Translations under genes and position numbers: made by a program
Shown: piece after piece, positions 5,373 to 29,732 of the stretch
Layout: each line of letters opens with the position of its first letter
Position numbering within the stretch: the stretch's first letter is position 1
Assembly: GCA_003194425.1 (NCBI GenBank)
Contig: PQXB01000001.1
Span: 820,444-852,443 of the forward strand
DNA length: 32,000 nucleotides
Direction: 5' to 3'
Origin: Candidatus Methanophagaceae archaeon
GTDB lineage: Archaea > Halobacteriota > Syntropharchaeia > Alkanophagales > Methanospirareceae
The notes under the pieces: generated by a model
Databases searched by the model: none
What the model was told of the DNA's origin: nothing
The model's input: only the letters and a program-made list of their open reading frames with translations

Positions 5373-5447
5373 TTTGTTACACCCTCACACACTTACTACA
5401 ATCCAACCCTTTTTCTCTTACATAATTCCAAAGAAAAATGATAACAT

Positions 5448-5636
5448 TCAGTACCTCTTCCTGTAAATCTCATCGTGATGTCCCAAATCGAGGAATCTAA
5501 CCATCTTACCTTCCTCTTCTATTTCAAAGACTAAAAAAAAGGACTTCTCCAAACGAACTCGCCTCAAACCCTTTAAATCATACCTTAACGGTTTGTAATG
5601 GTAGGGATTTTCTATTATCGCTTCTACACTCTTCAT
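5448..5636 (-). CDS. RelE/ParE-like toxin, unusually short (62 aa)
   Basis: The segment ...ENPYHYKPLRYDLKGLRRVRLEKSFFLVFEIEEEGKMVRFLDLGHHDEIY... matches the C-terminal two-thirds of RelE/ParE toxins (nP..g.pL.g.l.g..r.R.g.yR.iy.i.....v.i..i.hR...Y). The usual ~25-aa N-terminal strand and helix are missing. It sits directly downstream of a small acidic ORF. Confidence 0.6.
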   Translation of the reverse strand: MKSVEAIIENPYHYKPLRYDLKGLRRVRLEKSFFLVFEIEEEGKMVRFLDLGHHDEIYRKRY

Positions 5637-5638
5637 TA

Positions 5639-5878
5639 CTACATCGTAGAGTTTTTTAAATCTTCAATATTCGAGAATGTTTCGAAATCTCCTTCTTTCC
5701 TTATCTCCTCTAACTTCTCCAAATACTCCTCTTTTACCTCGTAGAACGCGTCGGTGTGCATTTCAACAAGTGTCTCAAGCATCCCCTCCAACCCTTCTAC
5801 TCTTCCCTTAAGGCTTTTCACATCTTCTAATACCTGCCTCATCATTCCCCTCTCTTCTAGTTCCATCATTTCAAACAC
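5639..5878 (-). CDS. Putative antitoxin partner (small acidic coiled-coil protein)
   Basis: 79-aa E/K-rich ORF ending 2 nt before the toxin ATG, with the junction ATG TAG TAA TGA. Its tail ...IRKEGDFETFSNIEDLKN resembles the ...FEAGRYYTLKTEKDIDKF tail of the antitoxin relic at 20621-20770. Start is GTG 5878 or ATG 5869. The function is inferred from position only. Confidence 0.45.
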   Translation of the reverse strand: MFEMMELEERGMMRQVLEDVKSLKGRVEGLEGMLETLVEMHTDAFYEVKEEYLEKLEEIRKEGDFETFSNIEDLKNSTM

Positions 5879-5901
5879 CTAATCTTATTTTGGCAGCCAC
5901 A

Positions 5902-5909
5902 TATTTAAA
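5902..5909 (-). promoter_or_regulatory. Candidate archaeal TATA box (TTTAAATA) for the RelE-like module
   Basis: On the minus strand: TTTAAATA, then 23 nt, then GTG 5878. TATA-to-start spacing fits a leaderless or very short-leader transcript. Motif-level call only. Confidence 0.3.
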
Positions 5910-5965
5910 GGATGCAAGAAAGGTAATGCCGACATCAAATGCGAATTTCTTGAGGGGTTGTATAA

Positions 5966-7180
5966 TTATCTCTTTTTATTCTTGTGTTCTCTGACAGCGC
6001 TCTCACACACCTCCGCAACTCTTCTCGCAACACTCTCCCAACTACGATTCTTTACCACATATTCTCTCCCCCTCCTTCCCATCTCTTCCCTCAACTTCTT
6101 ATCTTTCAGGAGTTTTATTATTGCTTCTGCTAATTCCTCGGGATTCTCCGGTTCAACTAATATTCCTGCGTTCTGCTCTTCTAAAATCTCAAATCCACTT
6201 ATTCTACTCGCGATCACAGGTTTTTTACAAGCCATATATTCACACAACTTTAAGGGGGAGTATCCAGATTTTAAAGGTTTTTTAGGAACAACACACACAT
6301 CACACGCATTAATATGTAGAGGGACTTTCTCATAAGGCACAGCACCAGTGAAGATAAACTTCTCGGAGACGCCAATTTGCTCACTAAGCTCTGTTAATTC
6401 TTTCCTTAAGGAACCATCACCAACCATCAAGAACCGGGTGTTAGGATAATTTCCCAATATATATGGAGCACTTCTTATAAAATAATCAATTCCCTGATAG
6501 GCAGCAAAAGTACCACTATAGCATATATAATAATAATTTTTTTCAAGATTTAGTTTCTTCCTTGCTTCTGTGATAGAGATTGGCTTAAACAACTCCGTGT
6601 TTGCTCCGTTTTGAATTTCTACCATCTTATCTTCAGGAATCCCATAATCTCTTTGGAGAGTCTCTTTCAGTCTTGATGTAACAACAATAATTTTATCGGC
6701 TCTTGGCAAAGTGAATCTCTCTATTTTGTCAATAATATGTAATGAGATGCCCTTTGCTCGCCCGGCAATTTCCATTTCGTCCACGACTATGCCATTCACT
6801 TCTTTGACCACAGGGATTTTAAAAAATTTAGCTAGGAAGTAGCCACTGTTAAATAAAGTGTGACGTATATAAGCCACATCAGGCATCGATTTCTGCCGCA
6901 TTATTACAACAAAACCAATAAGAAAAATACGAAGATGAGCCAAGAAATATAGAAGTAACCAGAATATTGGTGAAGTCTCCCCTAACCGCTCTAATATTGA
7001 TGACTTCGTCTCAACGACGATTTCCTCTTCAGATTCCGGACGATCGGTATTTAAGTATATTAAATTATGCCCTTCTTTAAGCAGCGATGTCAGCACTTCA
7101 TAAATATGAACGGATTCAGTTCCCAATCTCCTGGTTTTTAAAACACCATAATAAAAAATGTTCATTCTTTTCATCGCCAC
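5966..7180 (-). CDS. GT4-family (GT-B) glycosyltransferase
   Basis: 404 aa. The C-terminal lobe motif ...GYSPLKLCEYMACKKPVIASRISGFEILEEQNAGILVEP is an E(x7)E-type Glycos_transf_1 signature. Confidence 0.85.
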   Translation of the reverse strand: MAMKRMNIFYYGVLKTRRLGTESVHIYEVLTSLLKEGHNLIYLNTDRPESEEEIVVETKSSILERLGETSPIFWLLLYFLAHLRIFLIGFVVIMRQKSMPDVAYIRHTLFNSGYFLAKFFKIPVVKEVNGIVVDEMEIAGRAKGISLHIIDKIERFTLPRADKIIVVTSRLKETLQRDYGIPEDKMVEIQNGANTELFKPISITEARKKLNLEKNYYYICYSGTFAAYQGIDYFIRSAPYILGNYPNTRFLMVGDGSLRKELTELSEQIGVSEKFIFTGAVPYEKVPLHINACDVCVVPKKPLKSGYSPLKLCEYMACKKPVIASRISGFEILEEQNAGILVEPENPEELAEAIIKLLKDKKLREEMGRRGREYVVKNRSWESVARRVAEVCESAVREHKNKKR

Positions 7181-9450
7181 ACCTCCGAGCCACCGTTATC
7201 ATAAATCCTGCTTTTATCGGCAAATACATCCGAATAGTCCGTCAGATTACACTCCTTTGATTCACATAATACTTTCCCTTTTTTTATATTACGATACCCT
7301 AAATAGACATTGCCACCAATATTTTTATGCCCGCAGAACGAGTAAATGGCAATTTCTGGAATGAATGTAACTTCTTCATTATATAATCTCATCCCCCCCC
7401 AGCCATCTACATATATTTTTGGATTATCCCGGTTCATAAAATCTCTTAACCAGCTCGCACTGTAACTCTCCTGATCGTGAATGTACAATGTATTGTAATT
7501 ATCTCCATCAGTGCTTAAGGTTATCTCTCGTGGAATACCGAATATCGCAAACATTGCTCCCGTGACGCACAAGAATAGCGGTATCAGAACCAGTAATATA
7601 ATTAAATACACCCCCGGAGTCGCCAGAGTCTGTTCAGGTTTGTTGTGAGTTTGTTTAGACTTGTTATTTCGTAAGCGAGTTGAGCGAGTTAGAAAAAGTT
7701 GATATAATTTTCCTAAAGTTTCTTTCAGCATCAAACATCCTAAAACGAACACAACAGATAAAATCACCAACAGCATCGAGTATGTGCGCTTTATGTCATA
7801 CCCCTCTGAAACATAAGGAAGTGCAACCATAATCACAAGTATTCCAGTACACATCAATGTCAGCACTAAATGTTCAATTGAAAATTTTGTCTTTAAAAAA
7901 TCTGGTTTCAAATGCTCTTCTTCTCGCTCCGGAATCGCGATCATACTCTTATATTTCGTGAGCATACTGATAACTCCAGCACCTATGAGAAGGAATGAAA
8001 TCCATGTAACCACAAACTCTATTTTATAAGGAATAGCGGTCCTAATATTTTCGCCGTACAGAATACCCTCTCCAAGCATTGCCTGTGTTCTTTCGCATCT
8101 CGATTCAAAGAGAAAGAAGTTATGCAAGTTCTTAAAAGTTGCGTCTACGAACCCCACTCCTTCATTAAACGCTTCTTCTGTTACCTGCGAATACCAGAAG
8201 AAGACTATGCCAAAGAATAGCAGAACCAGCGTTAAACTTATGCTCTTCTTAATTGTGAACCGTTTTGACAATATCTCGATTAAGAACCAGCTAAAAAGCA
8301 TTATAAAGAAGAAGATATAGGTGGTTGCATAATGGGAGACGATGCACGACGCCATAAAGACGATGAATAAAATCCTCTTTCTCAGCGGATCTATCCCATC
8401 ACTTAAGAAGACTAACATCGCAAATCCAAAGAATAAAAACGCAGTATTTGTGCGCGGGCTGTATGCAGTATCTAAAAAAATATCTTGAGATATGAAGAAA
8501 AATGAAGCCAAAAACGCGTATAATTCTCCTACATATTTCTTTGATATTAAAAATACTATCAATGGTGCAACTGAAAGCAGTAATGAATAAAAAATTTTAT
8601 AAAAATATACGCTATTACTTACATTCAAAAAAGATTGGTATATTGAAGGTAATAATGAAATGGCTAAACATGCATCTAAAGTGGAATGTCCAAGAACATA
8701 CCAATGCAAATTACTAAATATCACTCTGAAAAAATGATATTCCTTATGTACATCCATCCCTAAGATATAATTCGATCTTAATGACAACAGTAGTAAAAGA
8801 GAGATGCTAATTAAAAATATTACAACAGGATAAAGTCTTTTTGGAAATTTGTGATTGAAAATGCAGACAAAAACGACATAAATTGGAATTAAAAATAACA
8901 AGAACACCAAAATTGAATTGTTTTTTGTAATATTCATCAAATGCATTCCAAATACGCTCAATCCTGGAAATAAGATTGGAACGATTAAAAATGCCTTCTC
9001 TGCTGCAGTTAAATGAATATTCTCTAACGTTACTACATTTTCACCGTTTATTTTATATCCAAGAATAGACAGCAAAATCAAGGCACTACTAAACGATACC
9101 ACCATCGAGACTGTTGAGAGTGGTGTTAAATAGCCAAGACTGTAATATAATTTATCTATGATTAGTCCGAAAAATGTTAGGAATGAAATACTGAGTCCTA
9201 CACTCAACACAACTTTTTCTAAAATTTCTATATTGTTTAATTTTAGAATAACAAGAATAAGTGCGCCGGGTAGTATGGTGAAACAGAGAAATCCGAAAAT
9301 CTGTCTCAAAAAAGGGATGTTTAAAAGTATTGTGATGTCTGTTAAGAGGATTATTGTTATTATAACTGCAAACCATTCTTTAGCTCCAAACTTCAATTTT
9401 ATTTTGTAATAAAAACCTTTTTTCATAGTTTTCCCTGTATCCAAAAACAT
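7171..9450 (-). CDS. 759-aa polytopic membrane protein; candidate glycan polymerase or GT-C-like enzyme (DUF2206-like from memory)
   Basis: Long intact ORF with a GGAGG RBS before ATG 9450. There are more than 15 hydrophobic segments over ~650 aa, then a ~110-aa soluble C-terminus. No WWDYG AglB motif is present. The functional call rests on context only. Confidence 0.6.
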   Translation of the reverse strand: MFLDTGKTMKKGFYYKIKLKFGAKEWFAVIITIILLTDITILLNIPFLRQIFGFLCFTILPGALILVILKLNNIEILEKVVLSVGLSISFLTFFGLIIDKLYYSLGYLTPLSTVSMVVSFSSALILLSILGYKINGENVVTLENIHLTAAEKAFLIVPILFPGLSVFGMHLMNITKNNSILVFLLFLIPIYVVFVCIFNHKFPKRLYPVVIFLISISLLLLLSLRSNYILGMDVHKEYHFFRVIFSNLHWYVLGHSTLDACLAISLLPSIYQSFLNVSNSVYFYKIFYSLLLSVAPLIVFLISKKYVGELYAFLASFFFISQDIFLDTAYSPRTNTAFLFFGFAMLVFLSDGIDPLRKRILFIVFMASCIVSHYATTYIFFFIMLFSWFLIEILSKRFTIKKSISLTLVLLFFGIVFFWYSQVTEEAFNEGVGFVDATFKNLHNFFLFESRCERTQAMLGEGILYGENIRTAIPYKIEFVVTWISFLLIGAGVISMLTKYKSMIAIPEREEEHLKPDFLKTKFSIEHLVLTLMCTGILVIMVALPYVSEGYDIKRTYSMLLVILSVVFVLGCLMLKETLGKLYQLFLTRSTRLRNNKSKQTHNKPEQTLATPGVYLIILLVLIPLFLCVTGAMFAIFGIPREITLSTDGDNYNTLYIHDQESYSASWLRDFMNRDNPKIYVDGWGGMRLYNEEVTFIPEIAIYSFCGHKNIGGNVYLGYRNIKKGKVLCESKECNLTDYSDVFADKSRIYDNGGSEVWR

Positions 9451-9541
9451 CCCTCCATCTTATCTTAAAACGTGGCATCATACCTTAGCTTAAATCATCC
9501 AAGTAAAAAAATTTCTTTACTAACGTTTTTTCCTTCTTAAC

Positions 9542-10483
9542 CTATTCACTCCCTTTCACATACCACTTAATATATCTCCTCACGCCTTCCTCAAAATCCA
9601 CTTTTGGCCACCAGCCCAGTTCCTTTTTAGCCTTCTCTGCTGAAACGGTCTTGCCCTCGAAGTCACCCGGTCTTTCTTCTTTATATTCTATCTTCACTTC
9701 CTTTACTTCCTTCACTTCCTTTCCTTCCTTCTCATCCCCTACCAACTTCTTCACCGTCTCCGCAACCTCTCTCACTGTTATCGGGCGCATTCCCTCTAAA
9801 TTGTATGTCTGGTTCTCTGCGGCGCCTTTCAGCGCGGCAACATTTCCCTCTGCCAAGTCCTCTACATAAATGAAATTCCTGTACTGCGAGCCATCGCCGA
9901 AAATCGTTAACGGTTCGCCGTTCAATGCCTTCCTGACAAATATCGCAACGACTGTTCCGCCTCTCGCTCTCGGTCCGTAGGGAATGCCATATCGCAGGAT
10001 TGTGAAATTCTGATTGTATAATCGCTTGTAGCTCTGGCAGTATAATTCCGCGGCAACCTTTGACGAAGTATATACGTGGTCTGCTTTTTCGATGTGCAAC
10101 GGTGTGCTTTCGTCTACCGCTTTTTCTGAGGACAACCCGTAGACCCAGACCGTGCTCGCGAGAATAACTCGTCCGATTTCGTTTCTCCTCGCCGCTTCCA
10201 GCACATTCGCCACACCTAAAATATTTATCTCTCCTGCTTCAACCGGATTTTTGTAGACATCGTTCACATCCGCCATCGCCGCCAGCAGATAGACCGCATC
10301 AAAATTCCCGGTTAATGCAACCGCAGTCTTCGAGAGGTCGGTAATATCTATGTAGAGGTGTCTAACATCTTCTCTGTGCGGTTTCATAATGTCAAACACC
10401 GTGACCTCGTGCTCCTGCTCGATCAGTTTATCCACGATATGCGAGCCAATAAATCCTGACCCGCCTATTACTCCTATCTTCAT
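9542..10483 (-). CDS. NAD-dependent nucleotide-sugar epimerase/dehydratase (extended SDR)
   Basis: The N-terminus MKIGVIGGSGFIGSHIVDKL is a GxxGxxG motif. YTSSKVAAE is the YxxxK catalytic motif. ...RPGDFEG...AKKELGWWP is a typical C-terminus. It carries an in-frame KEGKEVKEVKEVK low-complexity insert. Confidence 0.9.
   Translation of the reverse strand: MKIGVIGGSGFIGSHIVDKLIEQEHEVTVFDIMKPHREDVRHLYIDITDLSKTAVALTGNFDAVYLLAAMADVNDVYKNPVEAGEINILGVANVLEAARRNEIGRVILASTVWVYGLSSEKAVDESTPLHIEKADHVYTSSKVAAELYCQSYKRLYNQNFTILRYGIPYGPRARGGTVVAIFVRKALNGEPLTIFGDGSQYRNFIYVEDLAEGNVAALKGAAENQTYNLEGMRPITVREVAETVKKLVGDEKEGKEVKEVKEVKIEYKEERPGDFEGKTVSAEKAKKELGWWPKVDFEEGVRRYIKWYVKGSE
9692..9736 (-). repeat. 9-bp in-frame tandem repeat (gaag[tg][ga]aag x4-5 on the coding strand) encoding EGKEVKEVKEVK
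   Basis: Plus-strand units are cttcacttc / ctttacttc / cttcacttc / ctttccttc / cttctcatc, read directly. Confidence 0.9.
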
Positions 10484-10484
10484 T

Positions 10485-11115
10485 TTAGTTTAACACCTCC
10501 TTGAACAAAATAAATGCCTCTGCTAATTTTCTGTTACATTCCATACCTCTCATTTTAGCAAATGTTTTAAACCCTTCTTCGGAGCGAGGATTTGGATATT
10601 CCCTGGTTTCTGTCTCATAATATAACATAGCTTTTATTTTGTTGTTTAACAATTCTTCTGTTAGTTCTATATAAAGGTTAGGTGCAAAATGAATAGTTGA
10701 AGAAGGAACCTCGTATACTAATATTTTATCAATATTTCTGCATGCTACTCTACAAGCCTGATAAACTGCTCTGTGGTCTTGATTGCTGTCATTTTCGTTT
10801 GGAATATACGCTATATCTGGCTTCACCGTGGTTACCACATCCTCAATCGCTATTATACTCTTTATCAAACTTTCATCTAAATGCTCATCTCTCAATCCAC
10901 AAAAGAAATATTTCTCTATCCCAAGTAGTTCCTTAACTTTTTGTGCGCTTTTTTTGGTTTGGGCAGTATAAATATCGTCAATCTTATGACCCAAGACCCT
11001 GTTGGCAACAACATTAACAAACACTGCATCTCCCCTCTCTTTGTGCCATTGAATTGCTCCACCCGTACCTAACAACTTCATCATCTGCATGTGGAGCGAT
11101 TATTAAAACTTTCAT
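10485..11115 (-). pseudogene. PIG-L/LmbE-family N-acetyl-sugar deacetylase with a +1 frameshift near the N-terminus
   Basis: ATG 11115 (ATGA overlap with the upstream stop) opens MKVLIIAPHADDEV, the PIG-L AHPDDE motif. That frame stops after ~36 codons. The track ORF 10485..11090 continues LGTGGAIQWHKERGDAVFVNVV...SNQDHRAVYQACRVA in another frame. The span is 631 nt = 3n+1. Removing one G at ~11073 gives APHADDEVLGTGGAI. Confidence 0.8.
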
Positions 11116-11915
11116 ACTAATCCCCTTTTGTACCCTTTCAATGCTTCAACTTTTTTGGTTACAGTGATATTTCCTCTCTCAGCGAATACTCTTTGGGCTT
11201 CCTTCTTCATCCTAAATAATAAATTTTCACACCACTCCTTGCTTTGAACATATAATGTGGATGACATATAATGTTCCATAAACGTCTCTACATCTGGAAA
11301 AACTATTGGATTCACAAATAGCTCAAGAGATAAATTGCAGAATATCTTTTTTGCTACCGGTAGGACCTCTTTTCTCAAATCAGATGAACCGGGTTGGTAT
11401 TGTGGTGGAATATATTTCGCAACTCGATAGTGCATCTCTACCATCTCTCTCGAGGTATCATCAGGAGGACTTGCAATTAAAAAACGCCCATATGGCTTTA
11501 ATACCTGTTTAATCTCTGTCATTACTTCTTTCTCATTCATATAATATATGGCAAAATTGCAGGTCACAACATCAAAAGTATTCTCTTTGAAAGGGATATT
11601 CTCACCATTCTCTCTTATTAGAACAAAATCTTTACCTGGAGCAAATTCTTTTATCCTTTTCTTTGCCTCTCTCAGCAGAGACTCTGATAGATCTATACCT
11701 ACTATGTTATTTGTAACTTGGGAATACGCAAGGATTTGACTGCCGTTTCCGCAACCTATGTCAAGAACTTTCTCTCCTTGTTGGAGTTTGAGTTTCTTCA
11801 ATAGCCATTGATTAAAATCATTAGTGCCGTATTTTTCTATTAGATTTATTCTCGATACCAAATCCTTTTTATCCTTATAAAGCTCGCTTCCATCTCGGCG
11901 TTTTTTATCTAACAT
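11112..11915 (-). CDS. Class I SAM-dependent methyltransferase
   Basis: Motif I is EKVLDIGCGNGSQIL. The likely start is ATG 11915, preceded by GGAGG. The longer track start (MQEAGLLAG...) lies inside the aminotransferase gene. Confidence 0.85.
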   Translation of the reverse strand: MLDKKRRDGSELYKDKKDLVSRINLIEKYGTNDFNQWLLKKLKLQQGEKVLDIGCGNGSQILAYSQVTNNIVGIDLSESLLREAKKRIKEFAPGKDFVLIRENGENIPFKENTFDVVTCNFAIYYMNEKEVMTEIKQVLKPYGRFLIASPPDDTSREMVEMHYRVAKYIPPQYQPGSSDLRKEVLPVAKKIFCNLSLELFVNPIVFPDVETFMEHYMSSTLYVQSKEWCENLLFRMKKEAQRVFAERGNITVTKKVEALKGYKRGLV

Positions 11916-13924: not shown

Positions 13925-13983
13925 TTTCTCTCCTCTCTCTTCCTCTCCTCTCTCTTCCTCTCCTCTCTCTTTCTCTATTCTCT
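13901..13983. repeat. Direct repeat copy B (83 bp; one extra 15-bp unit)
   Basis: Same sequence as copy A plus an extra tcctctcctctctct unit, then 13 nt with 1 mismatch. It contains the stop codon of the upstream methyltransferase (13975-13977). Confidence 0.95.
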
Positions 13984-14676: not shown

Positions 14677-14683
14677 TCCCTTT

Positions 14684-15862
14684 TTACCTCATCAATTCAT
14701 CTAACGAATCCCTGCACTTCCTTACCATCACCTCATAAGAATATTCCTCTTCTATAAGATTCCTCGCATTCTTCACGATTTCCTCAAGGTTTGGATGCTC
14801 CAATGCTCGTATAACATTTTTCGCAATGCATTCTGGCGAATTATCTTCTAAAATAAAACCCGTTTCTCCGTCTTTTATTACATCTGGTATTGATCCAACC
14901 GGTGTTGCGAGCACGACTGCACCACAAGCCATTCCCTCTTGGACAATTGCTGGAAGTCCTTCTGAATACGAAGGCAGTAGAATCAATTTCAACTCATTCA
15001 GATAATTTGGGAGCTCGTTATGAGGAATCCATCCTGTAAATTTAACTTTATCATAAGATCCATTGTTCTTTAATTCCTCATTTATTTCATCAAATAACGG
15101 CCCGTCGCCGCCAATTAAAAATTCTAAATCACTCTTCTCTTTTAATATCAACGGAATCGCCTTTGCAAAATTTAACACCCCTTTCTCTATCGATAAACGA
15201 CTAATGTATCCAATTAAGTTCTTTTTGTTTTTTAAATCTTCCTTTATTTTGAAATTATCAAGATCTATGTACATTGCACCGTTAATTGAAATTTTATGCC
15301 TATATCTATTTAGTCCTGTGAACGAAATAATGTTCTTTGTTTCTATATCAATTCGATCTGCAAGAGAGAAATTAATCAGTTCTAAAATTCTAAAAATATG
15401 CCGCATAATTCTACCTATGCCAAATAACATCTTATCATATTGTAGTTCAGCACCTTTTGACGCAGGTCCAGTTACAAATAAAACTGTTTTTTTCCCCAGT
15501 AACTTCGCAGCTAGCATTGGTAATAGATCCAAGCGAGTTCCTATATAAAAGTATACAATATCAATATCGTTTGATATTTTGCTTATATTTAAAGAGATTC
15601 TCAACTGAATTAATATCTCTTTGAAAATTTTACTCAATATTAACTCGTTTATTTTTCTATTATATTTTATCTCTATTATTTTTATGTGTGTATTATTGGT
15701 ATTATTATAAAAAAACTTCCCTGTAATTGCAAATAATTTGATAGACGATGGAAGGAGATAATCTATAAAATTTCCCAAGATTGTCTGTACGACAGGGGTA
15801 CCAGTGGGATGTGTTACCACACAGATGTTGGGTTTATTTTTCGAAGTTTTCGTCTTCTTCAT
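14684..15862 (-). CDS. GT4-family glycosyltransferase
   Basis: ...LLPSYSEGLPAIVQEGMACGAVVLATPVGSIPDVIKDGETGFILE. ATGA overlaps the upstream stop at 15859-15862. Confidence 0.85.
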   Translation of the reverse strand: MKKTKTSKNKPNICVVTHPTGTPVVQTILGNFIDYLLPSSIKLFAITGKFFYNNTNNTHIKIIEIKYNRKINELILSKIFKEILIQLRISLNISKISNDIDIVYFYIGTRLDLLPMLAAKLLGKKTVLFVTGPASKGAELQYDKMLFGIGRIMRHIFRILELINFSLADRIDIETKNIISFTGLNRYRHKISINGAMYIDLDNFKIKEDLKNKKNLIGYISRLSIEKGVLNFAKAIPLILKEKSDLEFLIGGDGPLFDEINEELKNNGSYDKVKFTGWIPHNELPNYLNELKLILLPSYSEGLPAIVQEGMACGAVVLATPVGSIPDVIKDGETGFILEDNSPECIAKNVIRALEHPNLEEIVKNARNLIEEEYSYEVMVRKCRDSLDELMR

Positions 15863-16647
15863 ATTCTTCTTGCTTTTCTAATGAGTAGAAGAACTGAAAC
15901 AATAAAAGCCGAGGTATTTATCAACGCAAATAAAATGACAAATAAACCTAATAATCTGAAGATTACCGCTAATAATAGCATTGGCAGAACGAGTCCTGTT
16001 ATGTTATAAAAATTAACGGCTAGCACATTAAAGAAACTGGAAGGAGCGCCGAGGACATCTTCTCTTCCAATAAATCTATTCTCTGAAAAAAGTTTCTGAA
16101 ACATACATCCAAGAAGACGTGGAAAAATGTAACCCAATGAAGACCAGCATCCTAAGAATAGAAAAACACTTTTATCAATATTAGTCAAAATGAACACAGA
16201 GCTTAAGTTTATCCACTGCTCAGAGTGATTAAAAACCCCTATGCCTGCACAGCTGAATAAAAGCACACTCATAGTTGTATCAACTACATTATCTAATAAT
16301 GCTCCATATTTGCTGCAGGTATTGGTGCATCTCGCCATGTTACCGTCTACCGAATCAAGTAAATCATAAAAATTAATCAATAAAGCTCCTATAATCATAC
16401 CCTTATAAGTGTTAAAGGCTAATAACATGCATCCTATACTTCCAATTATTAATGAAAAATATGATATATTGTTAGCAGAGATGCCTAATCTTAAGAATAA
16501 CCAGGTTAAATAGTATGAACTTGGTCTTATTATACGACGAACCCACAGATTATATTTTTCAAACTTCTTTTTTTCTTTTGGGAATTGAGACCGAATATCT
16601 TCAACGGTTAACTTTTTTCTGTTCAATTTTCTTCTATTTTTATTCAT
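15859..16647 (-). CDS. CDP-alcohol phosphatidyltransferase-family membrane enzyme
   Basis: DLLDSVDGNMARCTNTCSKYGALLDNVVD fits D(x2)DG(x2)AR(x8)G(x3)D(x3)D. Multiple TM segments are present. Start ATG 16647 is preferred over TTG 16683. Confidence 0.8.
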   Translation of the reverse strand: MNKNRRKLNRKKLTVEDIRSQFPKEKKKFEKYNLWVRRIIRPSSYYLTWLFLRLGISANNISYFSLIIGSIGCMLLAFNTYKGMIIGALLINFYDLLDSVDGNMARCTNTCSKYGALLDNVVDTTMSVLLFSCAGIGVFNHSEQWINLSSVFILTNIDKSVFLFLGCWSSLGYIFPRLLGCMFQKLFSENRFIGREDVLGAPSSFFNVLAVNFYNITGLVLPMLLLAVIFRLLGLFVILFALINTSAFIVSVLLLIRKARRI

Positions 16648-16673
16648 ATTTTTTATTATATCTCCTATACTAA

Positions 16674-17033
16674 CTAACGGCAAGCCTCGCCCTTCAGGGC
16701 GGGGGTCCGTGACACATTTTTATAGACGCGATATTCCCTCATATCAGATAAGAATCCAAAACATTTTACAAAATCACGCGCATCAAGATTCAACGGGATT
16801 CCGAAATCCTCAATCATTACCATAAACTTTCGTTTAGATACTCCAGCGATCTCTGCCGCTTTCCCTAAAGATACAGCGCCCTCTGTATATTCCCTCATCG
16901 CCTTTCTTACTCTATATTCATTTATGATCTTCATGATAGACATATATGCCAAATCCTTCATCGAGATGTCAATCTCCTTCGCTATCTCCTTCAACCATTT
17001 GTCATCTTCCGCTTTAAGATCTATTTTCAGCAT
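16674..17033 (-). CDS. UPF0175-family antitoxin-like protein (HTH)
   Basis: ...EYTEGAVSLGKAAEIAGVSKRKFMVMIEDFGIPL matches the UPF0175 core (g.iSlgkAAelaG.s..eF...l...gIp). It overlaps the PIN gene by 20 nt. Confidence 0.65.
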   Translation of the reverse strand: MLKIDLKAEDDKWLKEIAKEIDISMKDLAYMSIMKIINEYRVRKAMREYTEGAVSLGKAAEIAGVSKRKFMVMIEDFGIPLNLDARDFVKCFGFLSDMREYRVYKNVSRTPALKGEACR

Positions 17034-17523
17034 TTTTTAATACCTCCTTCGCTTTATTTATCACCTCATCTCTTAAAACCCTTCTCAACTTCTCTAATAA
17101 TTTATAAGCCATATCTTTATTAATCTTTTCTATCAGGCATAGATCGACTACAATGTTTGCTGAAGAGATATATTTTAGATTAAAACGATTCATCACCTGA
17201 TATACCTTTGAATCATCTATCAGCACAAAGCAATCTTTTTTCTCTATCGCATAGGCAATAATCTCTATTTCACCAGAAGATATGCTAATTTCATGTTTAA
17301 TCTTTTCTTGTATCTTTTTTGGTGTGATAATCTGGATAACTCCTTTATTCGAAACCCTCTCGAATAAATTTGCATCCTCTGCAAACCCCTTTCCTTCCAA
17401 TATCTCATTACTAACCTTTGGTGTCACACATACATAAAAATTCTCAATCAAATAGGTGGTAAGATCCACCCTAAACAAGTTTATCCATGAAGATGTATCG
17501 ATTATAATCTTTGGCTTTTGCAT
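17014..17523 (-). CDS. PIN-like (DUF3368-type) nuclease toxin
   Basis: The N-terminus is IIIDTSSWINLFRV. The segments ...SSGEIEIIAYAIEKKDCFVLIDDSKVYQVMNRFNLKYISSANIVVDL match the GEaE.I.lA...(x)lDD..aR pattern of PIN-like partners of UPF0175. Confidence 0.7.
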   Translation of the reverse strand: MQKPKIIIDTSSWINLFRVDLTTYLIENFYVCVTPKVSNEILEGKGFAEDANLFERVSNKGVIQIITPKKIQEKIKHEISISSGEIEIIAYAIEKKDCFVLIDDSKVYQVMNRFNLKYISSANIVVDLCLIEKINKDMAYKLLEKLRRVLRDEVINKAKEVLKNAENRS

Positions 17524-17552
17524 TTTATCGGGTAGAGACCTATAAAGCTCGC

Positions 17553-17690
17553 TTTATCTTTGTTCTGATAATCGCCTTCCTTATTCCCGATTTCCTCATT
17601 TTATCGCCTTTTCTCTAACCTGATATAATCATAAAACCTGTATTTAAACGCTTCAAAACCCTTTATCGTCTCAGTAGCCGTTTCATATTA
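17553..17690 (-). pseudogene. Relic of a second MNT-HEPN module (only the gene junction survives)
   Basis: About 135 nt align, with indels, to 13473-13600. The relic encodes YETATETIKGFEAFKYRFYDYIRLEKRR* (intact MNT end: YETATETIKDFEAFKYRFYDYIREKAIK*). It then encodes MRKSGIRKAIIRTKIKRAL* (intact HEPN start: MRRAVIRTKIKEIEE). Confidence 0.75.
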
Positions 17691-17717
17691 CATATTTATT
17701 CCCCTTCCAAAGATTCT

Positions 17718-19478
17718 TCATTCCACCTCCTTCAAATAATACTCCCTCCTCCGCCTCTCGACAACCTCACCGATCAAATACTTTATAAGCCTCGGATTCA
17801 ACATCTTCACCATCTGCACACCCGCACTTCTTCTAAACCTCCGTTCACCCATCTTCTCTAAAATCTCTTTAGCCACCGTTGACGCACTGTATCGGTGTGG
17901 CATCTTGAACTCATTTTCCAGAACTCGTCCTGCCTCTCTTTTCTCGTAGCCCAATCTCCCCAAAACATACTCAAGTTTTTCAGGAATTACACCGTGTGCC
18001 GCTTCGTGAAGAGAGGCGGTAATTGAAACGAACGATTTTGCAGCCGCAGTGATTTTGTTTTCCTTCAATACCGCAACGAACTCGTCAATCTCGCCCTCGT
18101 TCATCCTCGCGAGCGTGTAGAGAAAAGAGTAATATTCGCCAAGCAGATACAAATATTCTGTGAGTGAATGAATAATCACTATTCCCAAATCGAGTTCAGG
18201 CGTCGGCGTCTTAACCCTTACCTCCGCCCCTGACTGTATTTTTCTGTTAATTACGCGTCCTCTGAACTTGTCCTTGTCCATATAAATGAGATGACTCAAC
18301 TCCAACTGCCACTGCAGGTCTATAATTATCTTCGCATCTCGGTCAATGAGGTCGGGGATTGTCGAGCCGCTCACTACTGCTCCTTCTTTGTCTTTGTAGC
18401 CTGCCTCGTGAAAGATTTCGTAGGATTTCTTGTAGACGTCGTAATCGTCCAGAATTAGAAGGTCAACATCGCCCGGAACCGCAGCGTAAGGTCTGATCGT
18501 CTTGAACACGACATATTCGATGCCCGAAGCATCAAGAGTTCTCGAAATTTTTCCCACCCCTTCCAAAAACTTTAAATACCTCTCCTGCTCTTCATCGTAT
18601 TTATCTCTTAGTTTATCCAATCTTCCCTGCTGCTTGAGTGCCTTCAGGTAGAGCAGCGAGATTTTGTTCTTGACTGCGAGGTCGTAGAGTTCAAGAGACT
18701 CGGTACCGTTAACGAAAGGCGGTTTGTTTGGTAGAAAAGGAGAGCCTATCGTTTTTAGAAGTTTCATTGTTTGGCTCGAGTTTTTAGTGTTTTTAGATTC
18801 AAATACCTCTTCTCGCACCCGCTCTTTCAGTTCTGCTAAATCTTTACTCCCGTCCAATCTCTTCATTTTATATTCCTTACCAATCTCTAAATAAACCTTC
18901 CTCCGCTCCTTTAAATAGCTTAGGGACGGCGTGTCTTCTTTTCTCTGAAACGCCGTCTCCTCTGGCAAATCAATCAGAAAAACCAAGTCCGGCTCAGGTG
19001 CAATCCGAAAACAGTTCTCAATCAAACCCCTCAAATGGCTAAAATCAGCCTCCGCCTCCTCTCTCGGAATATCATTCATCACCGTGTCATAAACATACCT
19101 GTCGCAAACAACCGTCCTTCCGAGCCTCTTCGGAAGAATTATCTTGGCAAGGAGCTGGAGAGAATAGTCGAACAGCAAATATTTCTGATAAACTGACGAC
19201 ACTAACGAAAACCTCCTCACCGCATCCCTCTTGGCACTTGAATAATCTTCGTACTCTCTTATGTTCCGCCCGTGCAGAAACAGAAACTTCCCAATCTCCA
19301 ATGCAGGTCTCGCCAGAAAGGGCTTGTATCTGCCGTAAACATAATTGCATTTCACCCCCCTCCTCTTCATCTCCGCAGCCAAAAACCTTGCCAGCGTCGT
19401 CTTGCCAGCACCGTCCATTCCAGTAAAACAAATCAACTTAGCCTTTGCCCTTCTCATTTTCCTTGACGAGTTTTTCAT
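17718..19478 (-). CDS. Fusion protein: thymidylate-kinase-like P-loop domain + NTP_transf_5-like (uncharacterised pol-beta superfamily) nucleotidyltransferase domain
   Basis: 586 aa. The N-terminal domain has KLICFTGMDGAGKTTLARFL (P-loop) ...DRYVYDT...FLIDLPEETAFQR. The C-terminal domain has ...VVFKTIRPYAAVPGDVDLLILDD...VVERRRREYY. The two halves align with the separate genes 24519..25025 and 22409..23503. Start is ATG 19478 or ATG 19457. Confidence 0.8.
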   Translation of the reverse strand: MKNSSRKMRRAKAKLICFTGMDGAGKTTLARFLAAEMKRRGVKCNYVYGRYKPFLARPALEIGKFLFLHGRNIREYEDYSSAKRDAVRRFSLVSSVYQKYLLFDYSLQLLAKIILPKRLGRTVVCDRYVYDTVMNDIPREEAEADFSHLRGLIENCFRIAPEPDLVFLIDLPEETAFQRKEDTPSLSYLKERRKVYLEIGKEYKMKRLDGSKDLAELKERVREEVFESKNTKNSSQTMKLLKTIGSPFLPNKPPFVNGTESLELYDLAVKNKISLLYLKALKQQGRLDKLRDKYDEEQERYLKFLEGVGKISRTLDASGIEYVVFKTIRPYAAVPGDVDLLILDDYDVYKKSYEIFHEAGYKDKEGAVVSGSTIPDLIDRDAKIIIDLQWQLELSHLIYMDKDKFRGRVINRKIQSGAEVRVKTPTPELDLGIVIIHSLTEYLYLLGEYYSFLYTLARMNEGEIDEFVAVLKENKITAAAKSFVSITASLHEAAHGVIPEKLEYVLGRLGYEKREAGRVLENEFKMPHRYSASTVAKEILEKMGERRFRRSAGVQMVKMLNPRLIKYLIGEVVERRRREYYLKEVE

Positions 19479-20508
19479 AAATCACCTCCAGCCTCTTCAC
19501 CACATTCTCCCACGAATACGGCAACACCTTCTCCCTGGTTTTAATCTCCGCCCCGTTTTCAATCTCCTTCACAGCCTTAACAAAATCCCCCTCCCCTTCA
19601 GCAAAGACCAAGCCCTCACCTTCCACGAAAACTCTTGGCAGTGCTCCAAATTTAGTGGTGAGAACAGGCAAATTACACGACATCGCCTCTAACACAGAGA
19701 GCGGCATTTCTATTGCATTTATCTTATTCTCCGGCGGCGTTGGAAAGACATAACAGTCTGAAAGTGCATAAACCTCCTCCACGTTCTTAAAATAGTTCAC
19801 CCAAATCTTGCAACCACTCTCTTTGAGACTTCGGTAGAGACGCTTTTCAATCCCTGTCGACCTGCTCCCGATAATCAGAACCTGTCCCTCTTTTCTCCTC
19901 GCAATCTCCTTAAAGATTTCAATTCCCCGCCCCTCTTTTATCGAGCCCACATGCAGAATCACAAAATCCCCTTTCTCTTTCCCGTTCTCCACTTTCTCTT
20001 TCTCTACGCCATATTTCGCTCGCAACGCCTCTTTAACGCCGTCAGAAACCGGAACAAACCTCTTGAGATCCACACCACCCGGTAAAAACTCAGTCTTGCA
20101 CCCCAATCCCTTAAACAGCCTCTCACTCTCTTCCGACTGCGTTAGCACCAAATCAGGTTTGAAGAGAGAAAAGATTTTCTTTGATAAGCGGAAAGGGGCG
20201 GGATGAGTTGCAGACACTACCATCTTCACTTTCGTCTCCTCCTTCGCATTCACACCCTTGCAATAAAACGCAAGCCCCTTCAAAATCATCAAACTTTTAA
20301 GAGACGGGCCATGAACATAATGAATTATTTGAGGTTTAAACGCTCTAATCTCCTTCCAAAAACTTTTAAAAAATATCTTTTTAATATTTAAAGGTAAAAC
20401 TTGGTGGTGCTTTGAGAGTTCCTCGCTCAAATAAAAACTCGTCTTCCGCATTCCTTCTTCTAAATCTCCTGAATATTCTCCTATTAAACATATTCTCATA
20501 CTTTTCAT
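19438..20508 (-). CDS. GT4-family glycosyltransferase
   Basis: 356 aa. ...YVFPTPPENKINAIEMPLSVLEAMSCNLPVLTTKFGALPRVFVEGEGLVF is a Glycos_transf_1-type C-lobe. Confidence 0.8.
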   Translation of the reverse strand: MKSMRICLIGEYSGDLEEGMRKTSFYLSEELSKHHQVLPLNIKKIFFKSFWKEIRAFKPQIIHYVHGPSLKSLMILKGLAFYCKGVNAKEETKVKMVVSATHPAPFRLSKKIFSLFKPDLVLTQSEESERLFKGLGCKTEFLPGGVDLKRFVPVSDGVKEALRAKYGVEKEKVENGKEKGDFVILHVGSIKEGRGIEIFKEIARRKEGQVLIIGSRSTGIEKRLYRSLKESGCKIWVNYFKNVEEVYALSDCYVFPTPPENKINAIEMPLSVLEAMSCNLPVLTTKFGALPRVFVEGEGLVFAEGEGDFVKAVKEIENGAEIKTREKVLPYSWENVVKRLEVIYEKLVKENEKGKG

Positions 20509-20770
20509 CTAGTTCTTCTTTGGCTCATCCTCTGTAAACCCCTTTCCTGTGTTTTTAATCTTTTCATTTGGTTTAATCTTTTCATTTGGCTCTTGAACTT
20601 TTCAGATAGCTCTATTTAAGTCATTCTTCCTCTAGATCGCTAAAGAATTTATCAATATCTTTCTCTGTTTTGAGTGTGTAATATCGCCCTGCCTCAAAAT
20701 CCCTCTCGCTCTCCTCGATACCACTCATCAAATCTTCATCACTCAAAATCTCAAGCTTTGTCCTATTTAT
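20509..20770 (-). pseudogene. Relic of a RelB/RelE-type TA module between two GT genes
   Basis: 20770-20621 reads INRTKLEILSDEDLMSGIEESERDFEAGRYYTLKTEKDIDKFFSDLEEE*, an antitoxin-like C-terminus with no proper start. An overlapping ATG then reads M-T-TAA-IELSEKFKSQMKRL..., a RelE-like N-terminus with a stop at codon 3. It is truncated by the next GT start. Confidence 0.45.
20554..20589. repeat. Perfect 2 x 18-bp tandem duplication (tttaatcttttcatttgg)
   Basis: Read directly: 20554-20571 = 20572-20589. It lies inside the toxin relic, producing SQMKRL/NQMKRL. Confidence 0.97.
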
Positions 20771-22377: not shown

Positions 22378-22408
22378 AAATAGTTACAGCATTAGCATTT
22401 TTCCTATA

Positions 22409-23503: not shown

Positions 23504-23565
23504 TGTTTCTTTTTTTAAATAACTTTTTCACCCTTTTATTTGAGTACCTTTTTTGCTCGTTGAAT

Positions 23566-29628: not shown

Positions 29629-29732
29629 CTTTAACAATCAAATTTATGAAAGGTAGGTAGTCTCTGCTGCCCTGCCCGTGCCGACCCTCTTATCACCGTG
29701 CAAAACCGCTACTCAATTCAGGTTCGACACTT

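What the first reader, a model, noticed from the sequence alone, without database searches (positions are those of the whole stretch)
5448..20770. Toxin-antitoxin modules and their relics punctuate the glycan island, mostly at compositional seams
Four positions carry TA material. (1) 5448-5878: a RelE-like pair between the wecCB block and a GT4/membrane-protein block. (2) 13005-13924: MNT-HEPN. (3) 16674-17690: PIN/UPF0175 plus the MNT-HEPN relic, between an AT-rich GT4/CDP-alcohol block and the GC-richer kinase-NTase/GT4 block. (4) 20509-20770: the RelBE relic, between the GC-richer and AT-rich GT4 genes. By eye, three of the four coincide with abrupt changes in base composition. No integrase, transposase or att-like site is visible. 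This resembles cassette arrays stabilised by TA genes (as in chromosomal integrons) but without the integron machinery. It suggests that glycan gene blocks are exchanged together with, or anchored by, TA modules.
Basis: inference. Interest (0 to 1): 0.7.

Follow-up and report, generated by a model that had tools for sequence, protein, structure and literature searches.

The report
Toxin-antitoxin passengers in archaeal glycan island
The toxin-antitoxin genes and gene remnants are real, but they are variable passengers in a fast-recombining surface-sugar gene island of a methane-oxidising archaeon, and related strains keep the same sugar-gene blocks and junctions without them.

Summary
All four positions carry toxin-antitoxin (TA) material. 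Two pairs look complete: HepT/MntA, and a PIN-like protein with UPF0175. One RelE/YafQ-like toxin lacks its N-terminal third. Two loci are relics: an MntA/HepT junction fragment and a RelB/RelE remnant.

The window is a low-GC glycan island of about 29 kb beside RNase P protein genes. The source is a close relative of a Methanophagales (ANME-1) MAG.

The link between TA sites and compositional seams is not significant (p = 0.08-0.38). Eight of 11 change-points carry no TA genes.

Related strains and MAGs keep the same glycan blocks and junctions with another gene, or nothing, in the TA slots. L011 and L018 have MT233-DegT with no TA. L054 has a methyltransferase in place of the RelBE relic. 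The sequence after the kinase-NTase gene continues in four different ways.

It duplicates the DegT leader and first codons and fuses them to MntA. This points to insertion by recombination anchored in a conserved glycan gene.

TA-rich structural-variant hotspots in ANME-1 were published in 2026. This is a new member of a known kind, of moderate interest.

The parts
1150..30056 (-). Low-GC (28-49%) glycan-biosynthesis island with all genes on the minus strand: flippase, wecC/wecB, GT4 and GT2 genes, DegT, epimerase, methyltransferases, CDP-alcohol transferase, kinase-NTase and a radical SAM enzyme. It abuts 57%-GC core genes (Rpp30 30190-30945+, Pop5 30903-31304+).
   Evidence: The same chromosomal flank is 97.9% identical in Methanophagales MAG GCA_026133975.1 (L058), which has different island content.
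5639..5878 (-). Antitoxin-like 79-aa ORF (site 1), ending 2 nt before the toxin start.
   Evidence: only a weak DUF2683 hit. Its C-terminus resembles the RelB-like antitoxin of L055 by eye. Family not established.
5448..5636 (-). RelE/ParE/YafQ-family toxin remnant of 62 aa. The N-terminal ~30 residues are missing.
   Evidence: Pfam ParE_toxin covers profile 34-89/89. NCBIfam TIGR00053 covers 30-91/92.
13868..13986 (-). Upstream copy of the direct repeat: purine-rich 15-nt repeats, then the ATG and DegT-derived codons (MKIPAAKI...), now the 5' end of MntA.
   Evidence: (D2). L011 shows that MKIPAAKIYFPEE is the native DegT start. Canonical MntA homologues are 128 aa and align only from residue 19.
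13508..13924 (-). MntA nucleotidyltransferase antitoxin (type VII TA), 138 aa. The GS...DxD motif is present and the N-terminal ~18 residues derive from DegT.
   Evidence: dN/dS is 0.10-0.26 against homologues.
13005..13511 (-). HepT (HEPN) RNase toxin. The RNIVVHRY motif is present. Residues 1-137 are canonical, and the 31-aa tail is read-through into the repeat.
   Evidence: dN/dS is 0.06-0.18.
12983..13101 (-). Downstream copy of the direct repeat: the leader plus the genuine DegT start (DegT CDS 11909-13039).
17553..17688 (-). Relic of a second MntA/HepT module: the last ~23 codons of MntA, the stop/start overlap, and the first ~11 codons of HepT, with 5-nt and 15-nt insertions.
   Evidence: (D3, D9, D10).
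17014..17523 (-). PIN-like (DUF3368 / PADLOC PDC-S70) toxin candidate of 169 aa, full length.
   Evidence: There was no Pfam hit in my own scan and a weak VapC N-terminal hit.
16674..17033 (-). UPF0175 antitoxin-family protein of 119 aa, overlapping the PIN-like gene by 20 nt. The gene order is toxin then antitoxin, the reverse of L066 and L079.
17718..20508 (-). GC-richer block (44-46% GC): GT4_356 plus the thymidylate-kinase-like/NTP_transf_5 fusion. It is bounded by the RelE relic upstream and the MntA/HepT relic downstream. It is conserved at 93-99% identity in L054, L055, L058 and L059, each with different neighbours.
20621..20757 (-). Antitoxin relic: the C-terminal 44 codons of a 73-aa antitoxin. 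An 87-nt deletion removed the start and the first ~29 codons.
20509..20624 (-). RelE/ParE toxin relic: the N-terminal ~35 codons, a stop at codon 3, an 18-nt tandem duplication (20554-20589), and truncation at the GT4_356 start codon.

Best explanation
The window holds a hypervariable cell-surface glycan island of an ANME-1 (Methanophagales) archaeon. Co-occurring strains rebuild it by swapping gene cassettes at or near gene boundaries, and sometimes inside glycosyltransferase genes.

The TA genes are selfish or defensive passenger cassettes. They enter the gaps between cassettes, persist while both partners work, and then decay. They do not drive or anchor the exchange.

Shown:
- Each TA slot is polymorphic among close relatives: TA, another gene, or nothing.
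- The same seams exist without TA.
- Two modules are complete. HepT/MntA is under purifying selection.
- Three loci are truncated or relics.

The insertion route can be read at site 2. HepT/MntA sits in the 5' end of DegT. The DegT leader and first ~19 codons are duplicated on both sides, so MntA is translated from a copy of DegT's start and DegT keeps its own.

Inferred: insertion happened by recombination anchored in the conserved glycan gene. One end was homologous, inside DegT. The other end was either illegitimate or a Campbell-type crossover through the repeat.

Also inferred: relics flank the kinase-NTase/GT4 block because recombination end-points are tolerated in dispensable TA DNA but purged from needed glycan genes.
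For: TA identities.

Polymorphic slots:
- Between MT233 and DegT: HepT/MntA in the window and L001-L004. Nothing in L011 (a 20-nt gap) or L018.
- L055 carries a clipped RelBE pair directly upstream of a DegT leader and 5' relic, in a different context (wecC-like gene upstream, GT4 downstream).
- Between GT4_394 and GT4_356: the RelBE relic in the window, L055 and L058. An intact antitoxin in L056/L057. A 246-aa methyltransferase in L054.
- After the kinase-NTase stop (window 17713-17727), four different continuations. Only the window type has TA.

Swaps without TA: L002 at 11920 and 10502; L058 at 28730 and 21955; inside GT4 genes at 15395, 21630 and 20860.

Direct repeat: 86 nt at 94% identity, E 1e-31. 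L011 proves that the repeated start is native to DegT. Canonical MntA lacks this N-terminus.

The same architecture recurs. L066/L068 have a 74-nt DegT-start repeat on both sides of a module 82% identical to the window's. L060 has a different MntA/HepT family flanked by a 68-nt repeat of a GT4 5' end.

5' fragments of glycan genes lie next to TA clusters in L055, L059 and L075/76/84.

dN/dS is 0.05-0.26 for MntA and HepT.

Literature: TA operons with insertions and partial deletions in ANME-1 structural-variant hotspots (PMC13385816). [quoted passage not shown]
Against: The sample of related loci is biased. Most were retrieved with TA proteins or their neighbours as bait, so I cannot measure without bias how often breakpoints fall at TA sites. 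In this biased set, 5 of about 12 distinct breakpoints touch TA DNA, which makes up about 9% of the island.

The cassette sits upstream of an intact DegT in only one setting: the window and its near-identical strain variants L001-L004. The L066/L069 copies may descend from that one event rather than from repeated homology-guided insertion.

Sites 1, 3 and 4 have no flanking repeats, so their insertion route is unknown.

No relative informative for site 1 was found.

The two largest TA-associated GC3 jumps (ranks 1 and 6 of 25) are still compatible with TA genes arriving together with blocks.
Confidence: 0.6

Rival explanations
1. TA modules act as addiction or anchor elements that stabilise adjacent glycan blocks, or they are co-transferred with the blocks, as TA cassettes are thought to stabilise chromosomal integron arrays.
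For: HepT/MntA is retained at 97-99% identity in every contig that carries this DegT allele (L001-L004). It is under purifying selection. MntA is physically fused to DegT codons, and DegT 5' fragments travel with the module. The AT-rich block 14980-17700 carries PIN/UPF0175 at its upstream end. Zhou et al. 2026 propose the same stabilising role for hicAB in ANME-1 variants.
Against: Relatives keep the same block order without TA (L011, L018, L054, L058). Three of five TA loci are truncated or relics and cannot cause post-segregational killing. Seams are not significantly associated with TA. Most seams have no TA. No integrase or attC sites were found.
Confidence: 0.15
2. Defence-island model. 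The TA pairs are abortive-infection or antiviral modules. They gather beside surface-glycan genes because both are under virus-driven diversifying selection, so the island is one combined virus-interface hotspot.
For: PIN-like plus UPF0175 match the PADLOC candidate defence system PDC-S70, and MntA matches PDC-S09. Homologous TA clusters lie next to an R-M system (L067) and virus-like genes such as a portal and a ligase (L066). TA clusters adjoin glycan genes repeatedly in ANME-1 contigs. In ANME-1, defence genes including TA dominate structural variants.
Against: There is no functional evidence. The PADLOC hits are to candidate systems only. No other recognised defence system is present in the window. 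Crippled modules would give no defence. This model is compatible with the best explanation rather than exclusive of it.
Confidence: 0.2
3. Portable-homology model. Repeated TA sequences themselves act as recombination substrates that promote exchange, deletion or rearrangement of the glycan blocks between them.
For: Two MntA/HepT copies lie in direct orientation 4.1 kb apart (13480-13595 and 17553-17688, 81% identical). The same 1.3-kb UPF0175-DUF3368-MntA segment occurs in two contexts (L066 and L067, 97.6%). HepT is broken at nearly the same codon (~11 and ~13) in the window relic and in L067.
Against: No observed variant is the product of recombination between the two window copies. 81% identity over 136 nt is a poor substrate. 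The breakpoints seen in relatives lie at the edges of TA DNA or inside GT genes, not within shared TA sequence.
Confidence: 0.1
4. Coincidence. TA genes are abundant everywhere in this genome, and four loci in 29 kb, some near seams, carries no meaning.
For: The seam association is not significant (p = 0.08-0.38). The MntA family alone has more than 240 close homologues in related archaea.
Against: Three observations argue against pure chance. The duplication of the DegT start around HepT/MntA recurs in other loci. Glycan-gene 5' fragments lie beside TA clusters in independent contigs. Relics sit on both sides of one block.
Confidence: 0.1

Closest known systems
TA operons in structural-variant hotspots of ANME-1 genomes (Zhou et al., Nat Commun 2026, PMC13385816)
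   Same: Same order of archaea. TA operons (including parE and yafQ types) lie in highly variable regions and show insertions and partial deletions between strains. A stabilising role was proposed there too.
   Different: That study centres on hicAB and on defence, transport and methane genes. The word 'glycosyl' does not occur in its text. It does not describe HepT/MntA or a target-gene 5' duplication.
Replacement flexible genomic islands for surface glycans ('glycotype' islands; e.g. PMC4033161, PMC4898812, PMC11898729 - titles and abstracts only; details from my own knowledge)
   Same: The island occupies the same chromosomal site in different strains, with different glycan gene sets. It has lower GC than the core and no integrase. 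Exchange is attributed to recombination. L058 against the window shows this on the Rpp30 side.
   Different: Those islands are usually described as swapped whole through conserved flanks. Here the exchange is cassette by cassette inside the island, with TA modules and gene debris at several junctions.
TA cassettes in chromosomal (super)integrons (own knowledge: Vibrio superintegron TA cassettes, proposed to limit cassette loss)
   Same: Co-oriented arrays of small cassettes interspersed with TA pairs.
   Different: There is no IntI integrase and there are no attC sites. The junctions are gene starts and ends, or lie within genes. The one repeat found derives from a neighbouring gene's 5' end.
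Orphan immunity/toxin arrays built by sequential displacement (T6SS effector-immunity, Rhs/CDI), with homology-facilitated illegitimate recombination proposed (PMC5361080)
   Same: An incoming module is anchored by homology in a conserved neighbouring gene. The other end joins illegitimately. Truncated resident fragments and orphan antidote genes are left behind, like the orphan antitoxin in L056/L057 and the DegT or GT4 5' fragments beside MntA/HepT.
   Different: Here the anchor is a housekeeping-like glycan gene downstream of the module, the fragments left behind are 5' ends, and the modules are TA pairs rather than secreted toxins.
HepT/MntA type VII toxin-antitoxin system (PMC7641770; NCBIfam NF047751/NF047752)
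   Same: An MNT gene lies upstream and overlaps a HEPN gene. The GS...DxD and Rx4H(xY) motifs are present and the HMM matches are strong.
   Different: The MntA N-terminus is replaced by about 18 DegT-derived residues. The HepT C-terminus reads into the repeat. Activity is untested.

Membership tests
HepT/MntA (HEPN/MNT) type VII TA | HEPN toxin with an Rx4-6H RNase motif and a family HMM match | tested here: met
   RNIVVHRY is in the sequence. Pfam HepT-like 3e-27. NCBIfam HepT_toxin scores 94.2 bits against a cut-off of 60.
HepT/MntA (HEPN/MNT) type VII TA | MNT nucleotidyltransferase antitoxin (GS-x10-DxD) encoded immediately upstream and overlapping | tested here: met
   YGSAARGQMVEGSDIDF is present. 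Polbeta scores 55.1 bits against a cut-off of 26.9. The NCBIfam MntA score of 52.6 bits is below the equivalog cut-off of 60. The genes overlap by 4 nt (13508-13511).
HepT/MntA (HEPN/MNT) type VII TA | Toxicity of HepT and its neutralisation by AMPylation | not testable with these tools
   Only purifying selection could be shown (dN/dS 0.05-0.26).
RelE/ParE/YafQ type II toxin (site 1) | Full-length toxin fold matching the family model end to end | tested here: not met
   The match covers only profile 34-89/89 (Pfam) and 30-91/92 (TIGR00053). The TIGR00053 score of 50.1 bits is below the cut-off of 87.25.
RelE/ParE/YafQ type II toxin (site 1) | Cognate antitoxin gene directly upstream | tested here: inconclusive
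   A 79-aa ORF ends 2 nt before the toxin. It has no significant family hit.
RelBE-type module (site 4 relic) | Homology to an intact antitoxin-toxin pair elsewhere | tested here: met
   The antitoxin part is 100% identical to the 73-aa P0001. The region is 75% identical at DNA level to the L060 pair, whose toxin (82 aa) hits ParE_toxin.
RelBE-type module (site 4 relic) | Intact reading frames | tested here: not met
   An 87-nt deletion removes the antitoxin start. The toxin has a stop at codon 3 and is truncated after about 35 codons.
UPF0175 / DUF3368 (PIN-like) pair | UPF0175 domain protein | tested here: met
   PF03683 scores 38 bits against a cut-off of 27.9.
UPF0175 / DUF3368 (PIN-like) pair | PIN-like/DUF3368 partner | tested here: inconclusive
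   My Pfam scan gave no hit. The precomputed table lists PF11848. PADLOC PDC-S70 matches over the full length at 4e-13. The VapC hit is weak (0.016). There is no PDB relative by sequence. The gene order is reversed relative to L066 and L079.
Integron-type cassette array | IntI tyrosine recombinase next to the array | tested here: not met
   No integrase or transposase domain was found in any long ORF of the window.
Integron-type cassette array | attC-like imperfect inverted repeats at cassette ends | tested here: not met
   No inverted repeats lie at the cassette boundaries. The only boundary repeat is a direct repeat derived from DegT.
Replacement flexible genomic island (glycan) | Same chromosomal site in related strains with different glycan gene content | tested here: met
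   The L058 flank (M50/CBS, Pop5, Rpp30, hyp107, GT2) is 97.9% identical. Beyond it, a different 6-kb gene set replaces window 28730-21955. The other flank of the island lies outside the window.
Transposon/IS-type mobile element around HepT/MntA | Transposase, terminal inverted repeats and a short target duplication | tested here: not met
   There is no transposase and there are no inverted repeats. The duplication is 86-119 nt and derives from a gene.

The most novel reading that the evidence does not exclude
One subfamily of HepT/MntA modules may have captured the start region of a widely conserved sugar aminotransferase gene (DegT) as flanking direct repeats. It would then spread as an integrase-free cassette. 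Repeat-to-repeat recombination would release a circle, and host homologous recombination with any DegT 5' end would re-insert it in frame. The module would use DegT's translation signals while regenerating DegT's own start. An independent MntA/HepT family flanked by a GT4 5' repeat (L060) would then point to a general way for TA modules to colonise glycan operons.
Probability: 0.2. Interest if true: 0.6.

Novelty: new member of a known kind. Interest (0 to 1): 0.35.

Why it matters
Surface-glycan islands are among the most variable parts of prokaryotic genomes and are thought to shape virus-host interactions. How they are rebuilt without dedicated recombinases is only partly understood.

This locus gives a strain-resolved view in uncultured ANME-1 archaea. 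Cassettes swap at gene boundaries and inside glycosyltransferase genes. TA modules behave as just another, fast-decaying class of cassette.

The repeat of a glycan gene's 5' end around HepT/MntA gives a concrete, testable footprint of homology-anchored insertion of selfish modules into operons.

If TA genes did anchor glycan blocks, that would link addiction modules to glycotype stability. The present evidence argues against that.

Tried and rejected
1. Integron-like array. No IntI, no attC-like inverted repeats, no tRNA genes and no Rfam hits.

2. Flanking direct repeats at sites 1, 3 and 4. Local alignments score no better than shuffled sequence.

3. A 23-nt match between the PIN-like gene (17373-17395) and the site-4 relic (20526-20548, D14). 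The companion match D16 is in the wrong order, so I treated both as chance.

4. The idea that the site-1 toxin (C-terminal two thirds) and the site-4 toxin relic (N-terminal third) are halves of one split gene. Site 1 has its own complete antitoxin-like ORF directly upstream. The two antitoxins are unrelated. There is no overlapping sequence to test the idea.

5. The idea that the kinase-NTase/GT4 block was inserted into a tandem RelBE-MntA/HepT cluster like the one in L060. The L060 MntA/HepT belongs to a different subfamily with no DNA similarity to the window relic. L054, L058 and L059 carry the block without the MntA/HepT relic. The idea is neither supported nor excluded.

6. Greedy binary segmentation of GC was too coarse. 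I replaced it with optimal partitioning.

7. Exact-sequence look-ups of the kinase-NTase and CBS proteins found nothing. A search for the sample accessions in papers gave no habitat information.

8. Pfam scans of the relic peptides gave nothing. Homologue search resolved them instead.

9. No relative informative for site 1 was found. L010 is identical to the window.

Full report
WHAT THE WINDOW IS

Nearly all long ORFs from 1150 to 30056 lie on the minus strand. They encode glycan-biosynthesis functions:
- a flippase
- UDP-sugar dehydrogenase and 2-epimerase (wecC/wecB)
- five GT4 and two GT2 glycosyltransferases
- a DegT aminotransferase and an NAD-epimerase
- PIG-L, several methyltransferases and a CDP-alcohol transferase
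- a radical SAM enzyme
- a thymidylate-kinase-like/NTP_transf_5 fusion

The last 1.8 kb holds archaeal core genes (RNase P Rpp30, Pop5, a CBS protein) at 56-57% GC. The island genes range from 29 to 49% GC. There are no tRNA genes, no Rfam matches and no integrase or transposase domains.

A 41-aa protein of the window is 98% identical to a protein named '[Methanophagales archaeon]'. The core flank is 97.9% identical to contig JAOQIL010000011.1 of MAG GCA_026133975.1 (L058). The source is therefore a close relative of that Methanophagales (ANME-1) MAG (taxonomy). Several metagenome contigs are 97-100% identical to parts of the window, so a natural population of strains is available for comparison.

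THE FOUR TA POSITIONS

All four are real.

Site 1. ORF 5448-5636 is a RelE/ParE/YafQ-family toxin. It matches only the C-terminal two thirds of the family models: Pfam 34-89/89 and TIGR00053 30-91/92. It starts 2 nt after a 79-aa antitoxin-like ORF that has no family assignment. This is a crippled module.

Site 2. MntA (13508-13924) and HepT (13005-13511) form a type VII pair with the catalytic motifs and strong HMM support. Against homologues 70-82% identical in DNA, dN/dS is 0.05-0.26. That is comparable to DegT at 0.06, so the pair is maintained by selection.

Site 3. UPF0175 (16674-17033) and a 169-aa PIN-like protein (17014-17523) overlap by 20 nt. My Pfam scan did not detect DUF3368. The precomputed annotation does list it, and both proteins match PADLOC candidate system PDC-S70 (4e-13 and 2e-6). 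Just upstream, 17553-17688 is a 136-nt fragment spanning the end of MntA and the start of HepT. It is 81% identical to the site-2 copy (E 2e-33).

Site 4. Homologue search turned the 41-aa ORF into the C-terminal part of a 73-aa antitoxin. In L056/L057 the full gene is present and identical in the shared part. The window has an 87-nt deletion that removes the start. The next 115 nt match the start of an intact 82-aa RelE in L060. In the window they carry CAA>TAA at codon 3 and an 18-nt tandem duplication, and they end at the GT4_356 start codon.

COMPOSITIONAL SEAMS

Optimal partitioning of GC gives 11 change-points: 1680, 8460, 9580, 10480, 11880, 12980, 14980, 17700, 20280, 28300 and 30200. 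Two touch TA intervals (12980 and 17700). A third lies 229 nt from site 4. None is near site 1.

Random placement of four intervals of the same sizes gives p = 0.15-0.38, depending on tolerance.

I also ranked GC3 jumps across the 25 boundaries between non-TA genes. Site 3 ranks 1st, site 4 ranks 6th, site 2 ranks 12th and site 1 ranks 13th. The exact permutation p is 0.08 for GC3 and 0.16 for GC. Four of the six largest jumps carry no TA: MT296/DegT, Epim/PIG-L, DUF2206/Epim and GT2_304/GT2_307.

The mosaic is real. The claim that TA genes mark its seams does not exceed chance.

WHAT RELATIVES SHOW

Slot upstream of DegT.
- In a Guaymas Methanosarcinales MAG (L011; DegT 84% aa identity), the order is GT4 - MT233 - DegT - epimerase. 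The gap between MT233 and DegT is 20 nt and holds no TA. There is also no MT296/PIG-L pair.
- L018 (a Dehalococcoidales MAG) also has MT233-DegT directly adjacent.
- L012-L021 have DegT directly followed by the epimerase.
- HepT/MntA is therefore an insertion into an older, conserved adjacency, not a border between blocks of different origin.
- In L055 a different TA pair lies immediately upstream of a DegT leader and a DegT 5' relic: a RelB-like antitoxin plus a C-terminally clipped RelE-like toxin. That locus has a different context, with a wecC-like gene upstream and a GT4 downstream.

Slot between DegT and the epimerase.
- It holds MT296+PIG-L in the window and L001, a radical SAM gene in L002, and nothing in L011-L021. 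No TA is involved in any of these swaps.

The GC-richer block (GT4_356 + kinase-NTase).
- It is 93-99% identical in L054, L055, L058 and L059.
- Upstream of it, L054 has a 246-aa methyltransferase where the window has the RelBE relic.
- Downstream of the kinase-NTase stop, there are four different continuations:
  - the MntA/HepT relic + PIN/UPF0175 + CDP-alcohol transferase in the window and L005-L009
  - GT4_384 in L054 and L058
  - a wecC-like gene in L055
  - a GT2_307-type leader in L059
.
- The seam at about 17713 exists whether or not TA DNA lies there.

Other breakpoints.
- L058 replaces window 28730-21955 with a different 6-kb gene set, with no TA at either edge.
- Homology also breaks inside GT4 genes at 15395 (L001), 21630 (L055) and 20860 (L056).
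- Junction debris is not limited to TA genes. The window has a GT4 C-terminal fragment (21952-22377), a kinase fragment (24519-25043) and an N-terminally truncated methyltransferase (23566-24192). L055 has a DegT 5' relic.

A caveat applies to all of this. Most related loci were retrieved with TA proteins or their neighbours as bait. In this set, 5 of about 12 distinct breakpoints touch TA DNA, which makes up about 9% of the island. Because of the bait bias, that excess cannot be taken at face value.

HepT/MntA is flanked by a direct repeat, 12983-13101 and 13868-13986. It is 119 nt at 84% identity, and its 5' 86 nt are 94% identical (E 1e-31). The repeat consists of purine-rich 15-nt units, a ribosome-binding region, the ATG and the first codons MKIPAAKI.

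L011 shows that MKIPAAKIYFPEE is the native DegT N-terminus. Canonical MntA proteins of this subfamily are 128 aa and align with the window protein only from residue 19. So MntA is translated from a copy of DegT's start region, and DegT keeps its own copy downstream. HepT is canonical up to residue 137 and then reads into the repeat.

Two other MntA variants (P0008 and P0009, 74% identical, also 138 aa) carry MKIP(A/T)AKIYFPEE. In L066/L068 the module is 82% identical in DNA to the window's. It is again flanked on both sides by a 74-nt DegT-start repeat, but no DegT gene follows.

In L060 an unrelated MntA/HepT pair is flanked by a 68-nt repeat of the 5' end of a GT4 gene. A second MntA/HepT pair in L066 has no such repeat, and neither do sites 1, 3 and 4 of the window.

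The simplest reading is recombination anchored in the conserved glycan gene. One crossover lay inside DegT. The other was an illegitimate or repeat-mediated join within its first codons. That duplicates the target's 5' end. This mechanism has been proposed for toxin/immunity arrays in Vibrio (PMC5361080). This step is inference. Only one DegT-adjacent setting was observed, so repeated homology-guided spread is not shown.

GENERALITY AND LITERATURE

The canonical relative of this MntA/HepT pair sits in ANME-1 contigs within clusters of other TA pairs: MJ0235/TumE, UPF0150, UPF0175/DUF3368, RelB/ParE and AF2212/PIN. These clusters lie next to glycan genes and glycan-gene fragments, including 5' pieces of the window's GT2_304. 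The co-occurrence of TA clusters with glycan genes is therefore recurrent in this lineage.

A 2026 paper reports that structural variants between ANME-1 strains are rich in defence genes. [quoted passage not shown] The authors hypothesise that TA operons stabilise acquired regions (PMC13385816). The glycan-island setting and the 5'-duplication footprint are not mentioned there.

VERDICT

It is overstated on seam coincidence and wrong on the absence of att-like repeats.

TA cassettes do share the slots where cassettes are exchanged, and one is physically tied to a glycan gene. But the blocks and seams persist without TA genes, most seams lack them, and most of the TA loci here are decaying.

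The best model is passenger TA cassettes in a recombination-driven glycan island (confidence 0.6). A defence role is a compatible addition (0.2). The anchor model is less likely (0.15).

This is a new member of a known kind. I score its interest at 0.35.

Noticed in passing
window 5195-5226, 2183-2238, 20554-20589: Three perfect short tandem duplications interrupt genes. A 16-nt x2 duplication splits wecB into 5190-5372 and 4265-5209. A 28-nt x2 duplication splits the flippase into 1686-2225 and 2191-3018. An 18-nt x2 duplication lies in the RelE relic. The first two cause frameshifts. They may be recent inactivations or reversible switches.
   Followed up: partly
window 21952-25043: A second, degenerate copy of the kinase/NTase unit: a kinase fragment (24519-25043), an N-terminally truncated methyltransferase (23566-24192) and an NTP_transf_5 gene (22409-23503). 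A GT4 C-terminal fragment (21952-22377) lies beside them. This is gene debris unrelated to TA.
   Followed up: partly
window 14684-15862 and 20771-21955: The GT4 genes are chimeric between strains. Homology to L001 breaks at 15395 inside GT4_392. Homology breaks at 21630 (L055) and 20860 (L056/57) inside GT4_394. This suggests swapping of N-terminal domains.
   Followed up: partly
window 29733-30056 (hyp107); L067 10173-10454 and 12490-12798; L069 2774-3091 and 6484-6801: A 107-aa protein with no family hit marks the core-proximal edge of the island. Homologues at 62-72% identity occur, two copies each, in TA-rich or junk regions of other contigs. In L069 they lie next to GT2 5' fragments.
   Followed up: partly
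window 17553-17590 and L067 ~9100: HepT is broken at nearly the same codon in two unrelated contexts: about codon 11 in the window relic and about codon 13 in L067, where it is fused to an acylphosphatase-like ORF. This could be a hotspot or a coincidence. It is unexplained.
   Followed up: no
window 9542-10483 and 11909-13039; L012-L021: DegT and the adjacent epimerase are 54-85% identical in protein sequence (most 60-80%) to adjacent gene pairs in MAGs from both domains. These include Dehalococcoidales, other Chloroflexi, Methanoperedens and Thermoplasmata. This indicates transfer of the two-gene unit between domains.
   Followed up: partly
window 13040-13088 and 13928-13976: The purine-rich 15-nt repeat (GAGAGGAGAGGAAGA on the coding strand) in the DegT leader varies between the two window copies and appears to differ in length among strains. 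The secondary leader matches are 68 nt in L002-L004 against 86 nt in L001. The repeat is absent from L011.
   Followed up: partly
window 30116-30191 and 30541-30596: A 15-nt tandem repeat (x5.3) lies exactly at the island/core GC step. An 18-nt perfect repeat (x3.1) lies inside the Rpp30 gene.
   Followed up: no
L066 11383-15802; L067 2938-4510: The UPF0175-DUF3368-MntA(-HepT) segment sits next to a phage-portal gene and a large DNA-ligase-domain gene in L066. In L067 it sits next to a ThaI/N6_N4 methyltransferase R-M pair. This suggests carriage on a virus-like or other mobile element.
   Followed up: no
L069 2516-3869 and 6226-7579: A 1.35-kb internal duplication (99.3% identical) lies in a region made of fragments of GT2, epimerase, DUF3368 and HepT genes. 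It is a 'graveyard' of TA and glycan gene pieces in a related contig.
   Followed up: no
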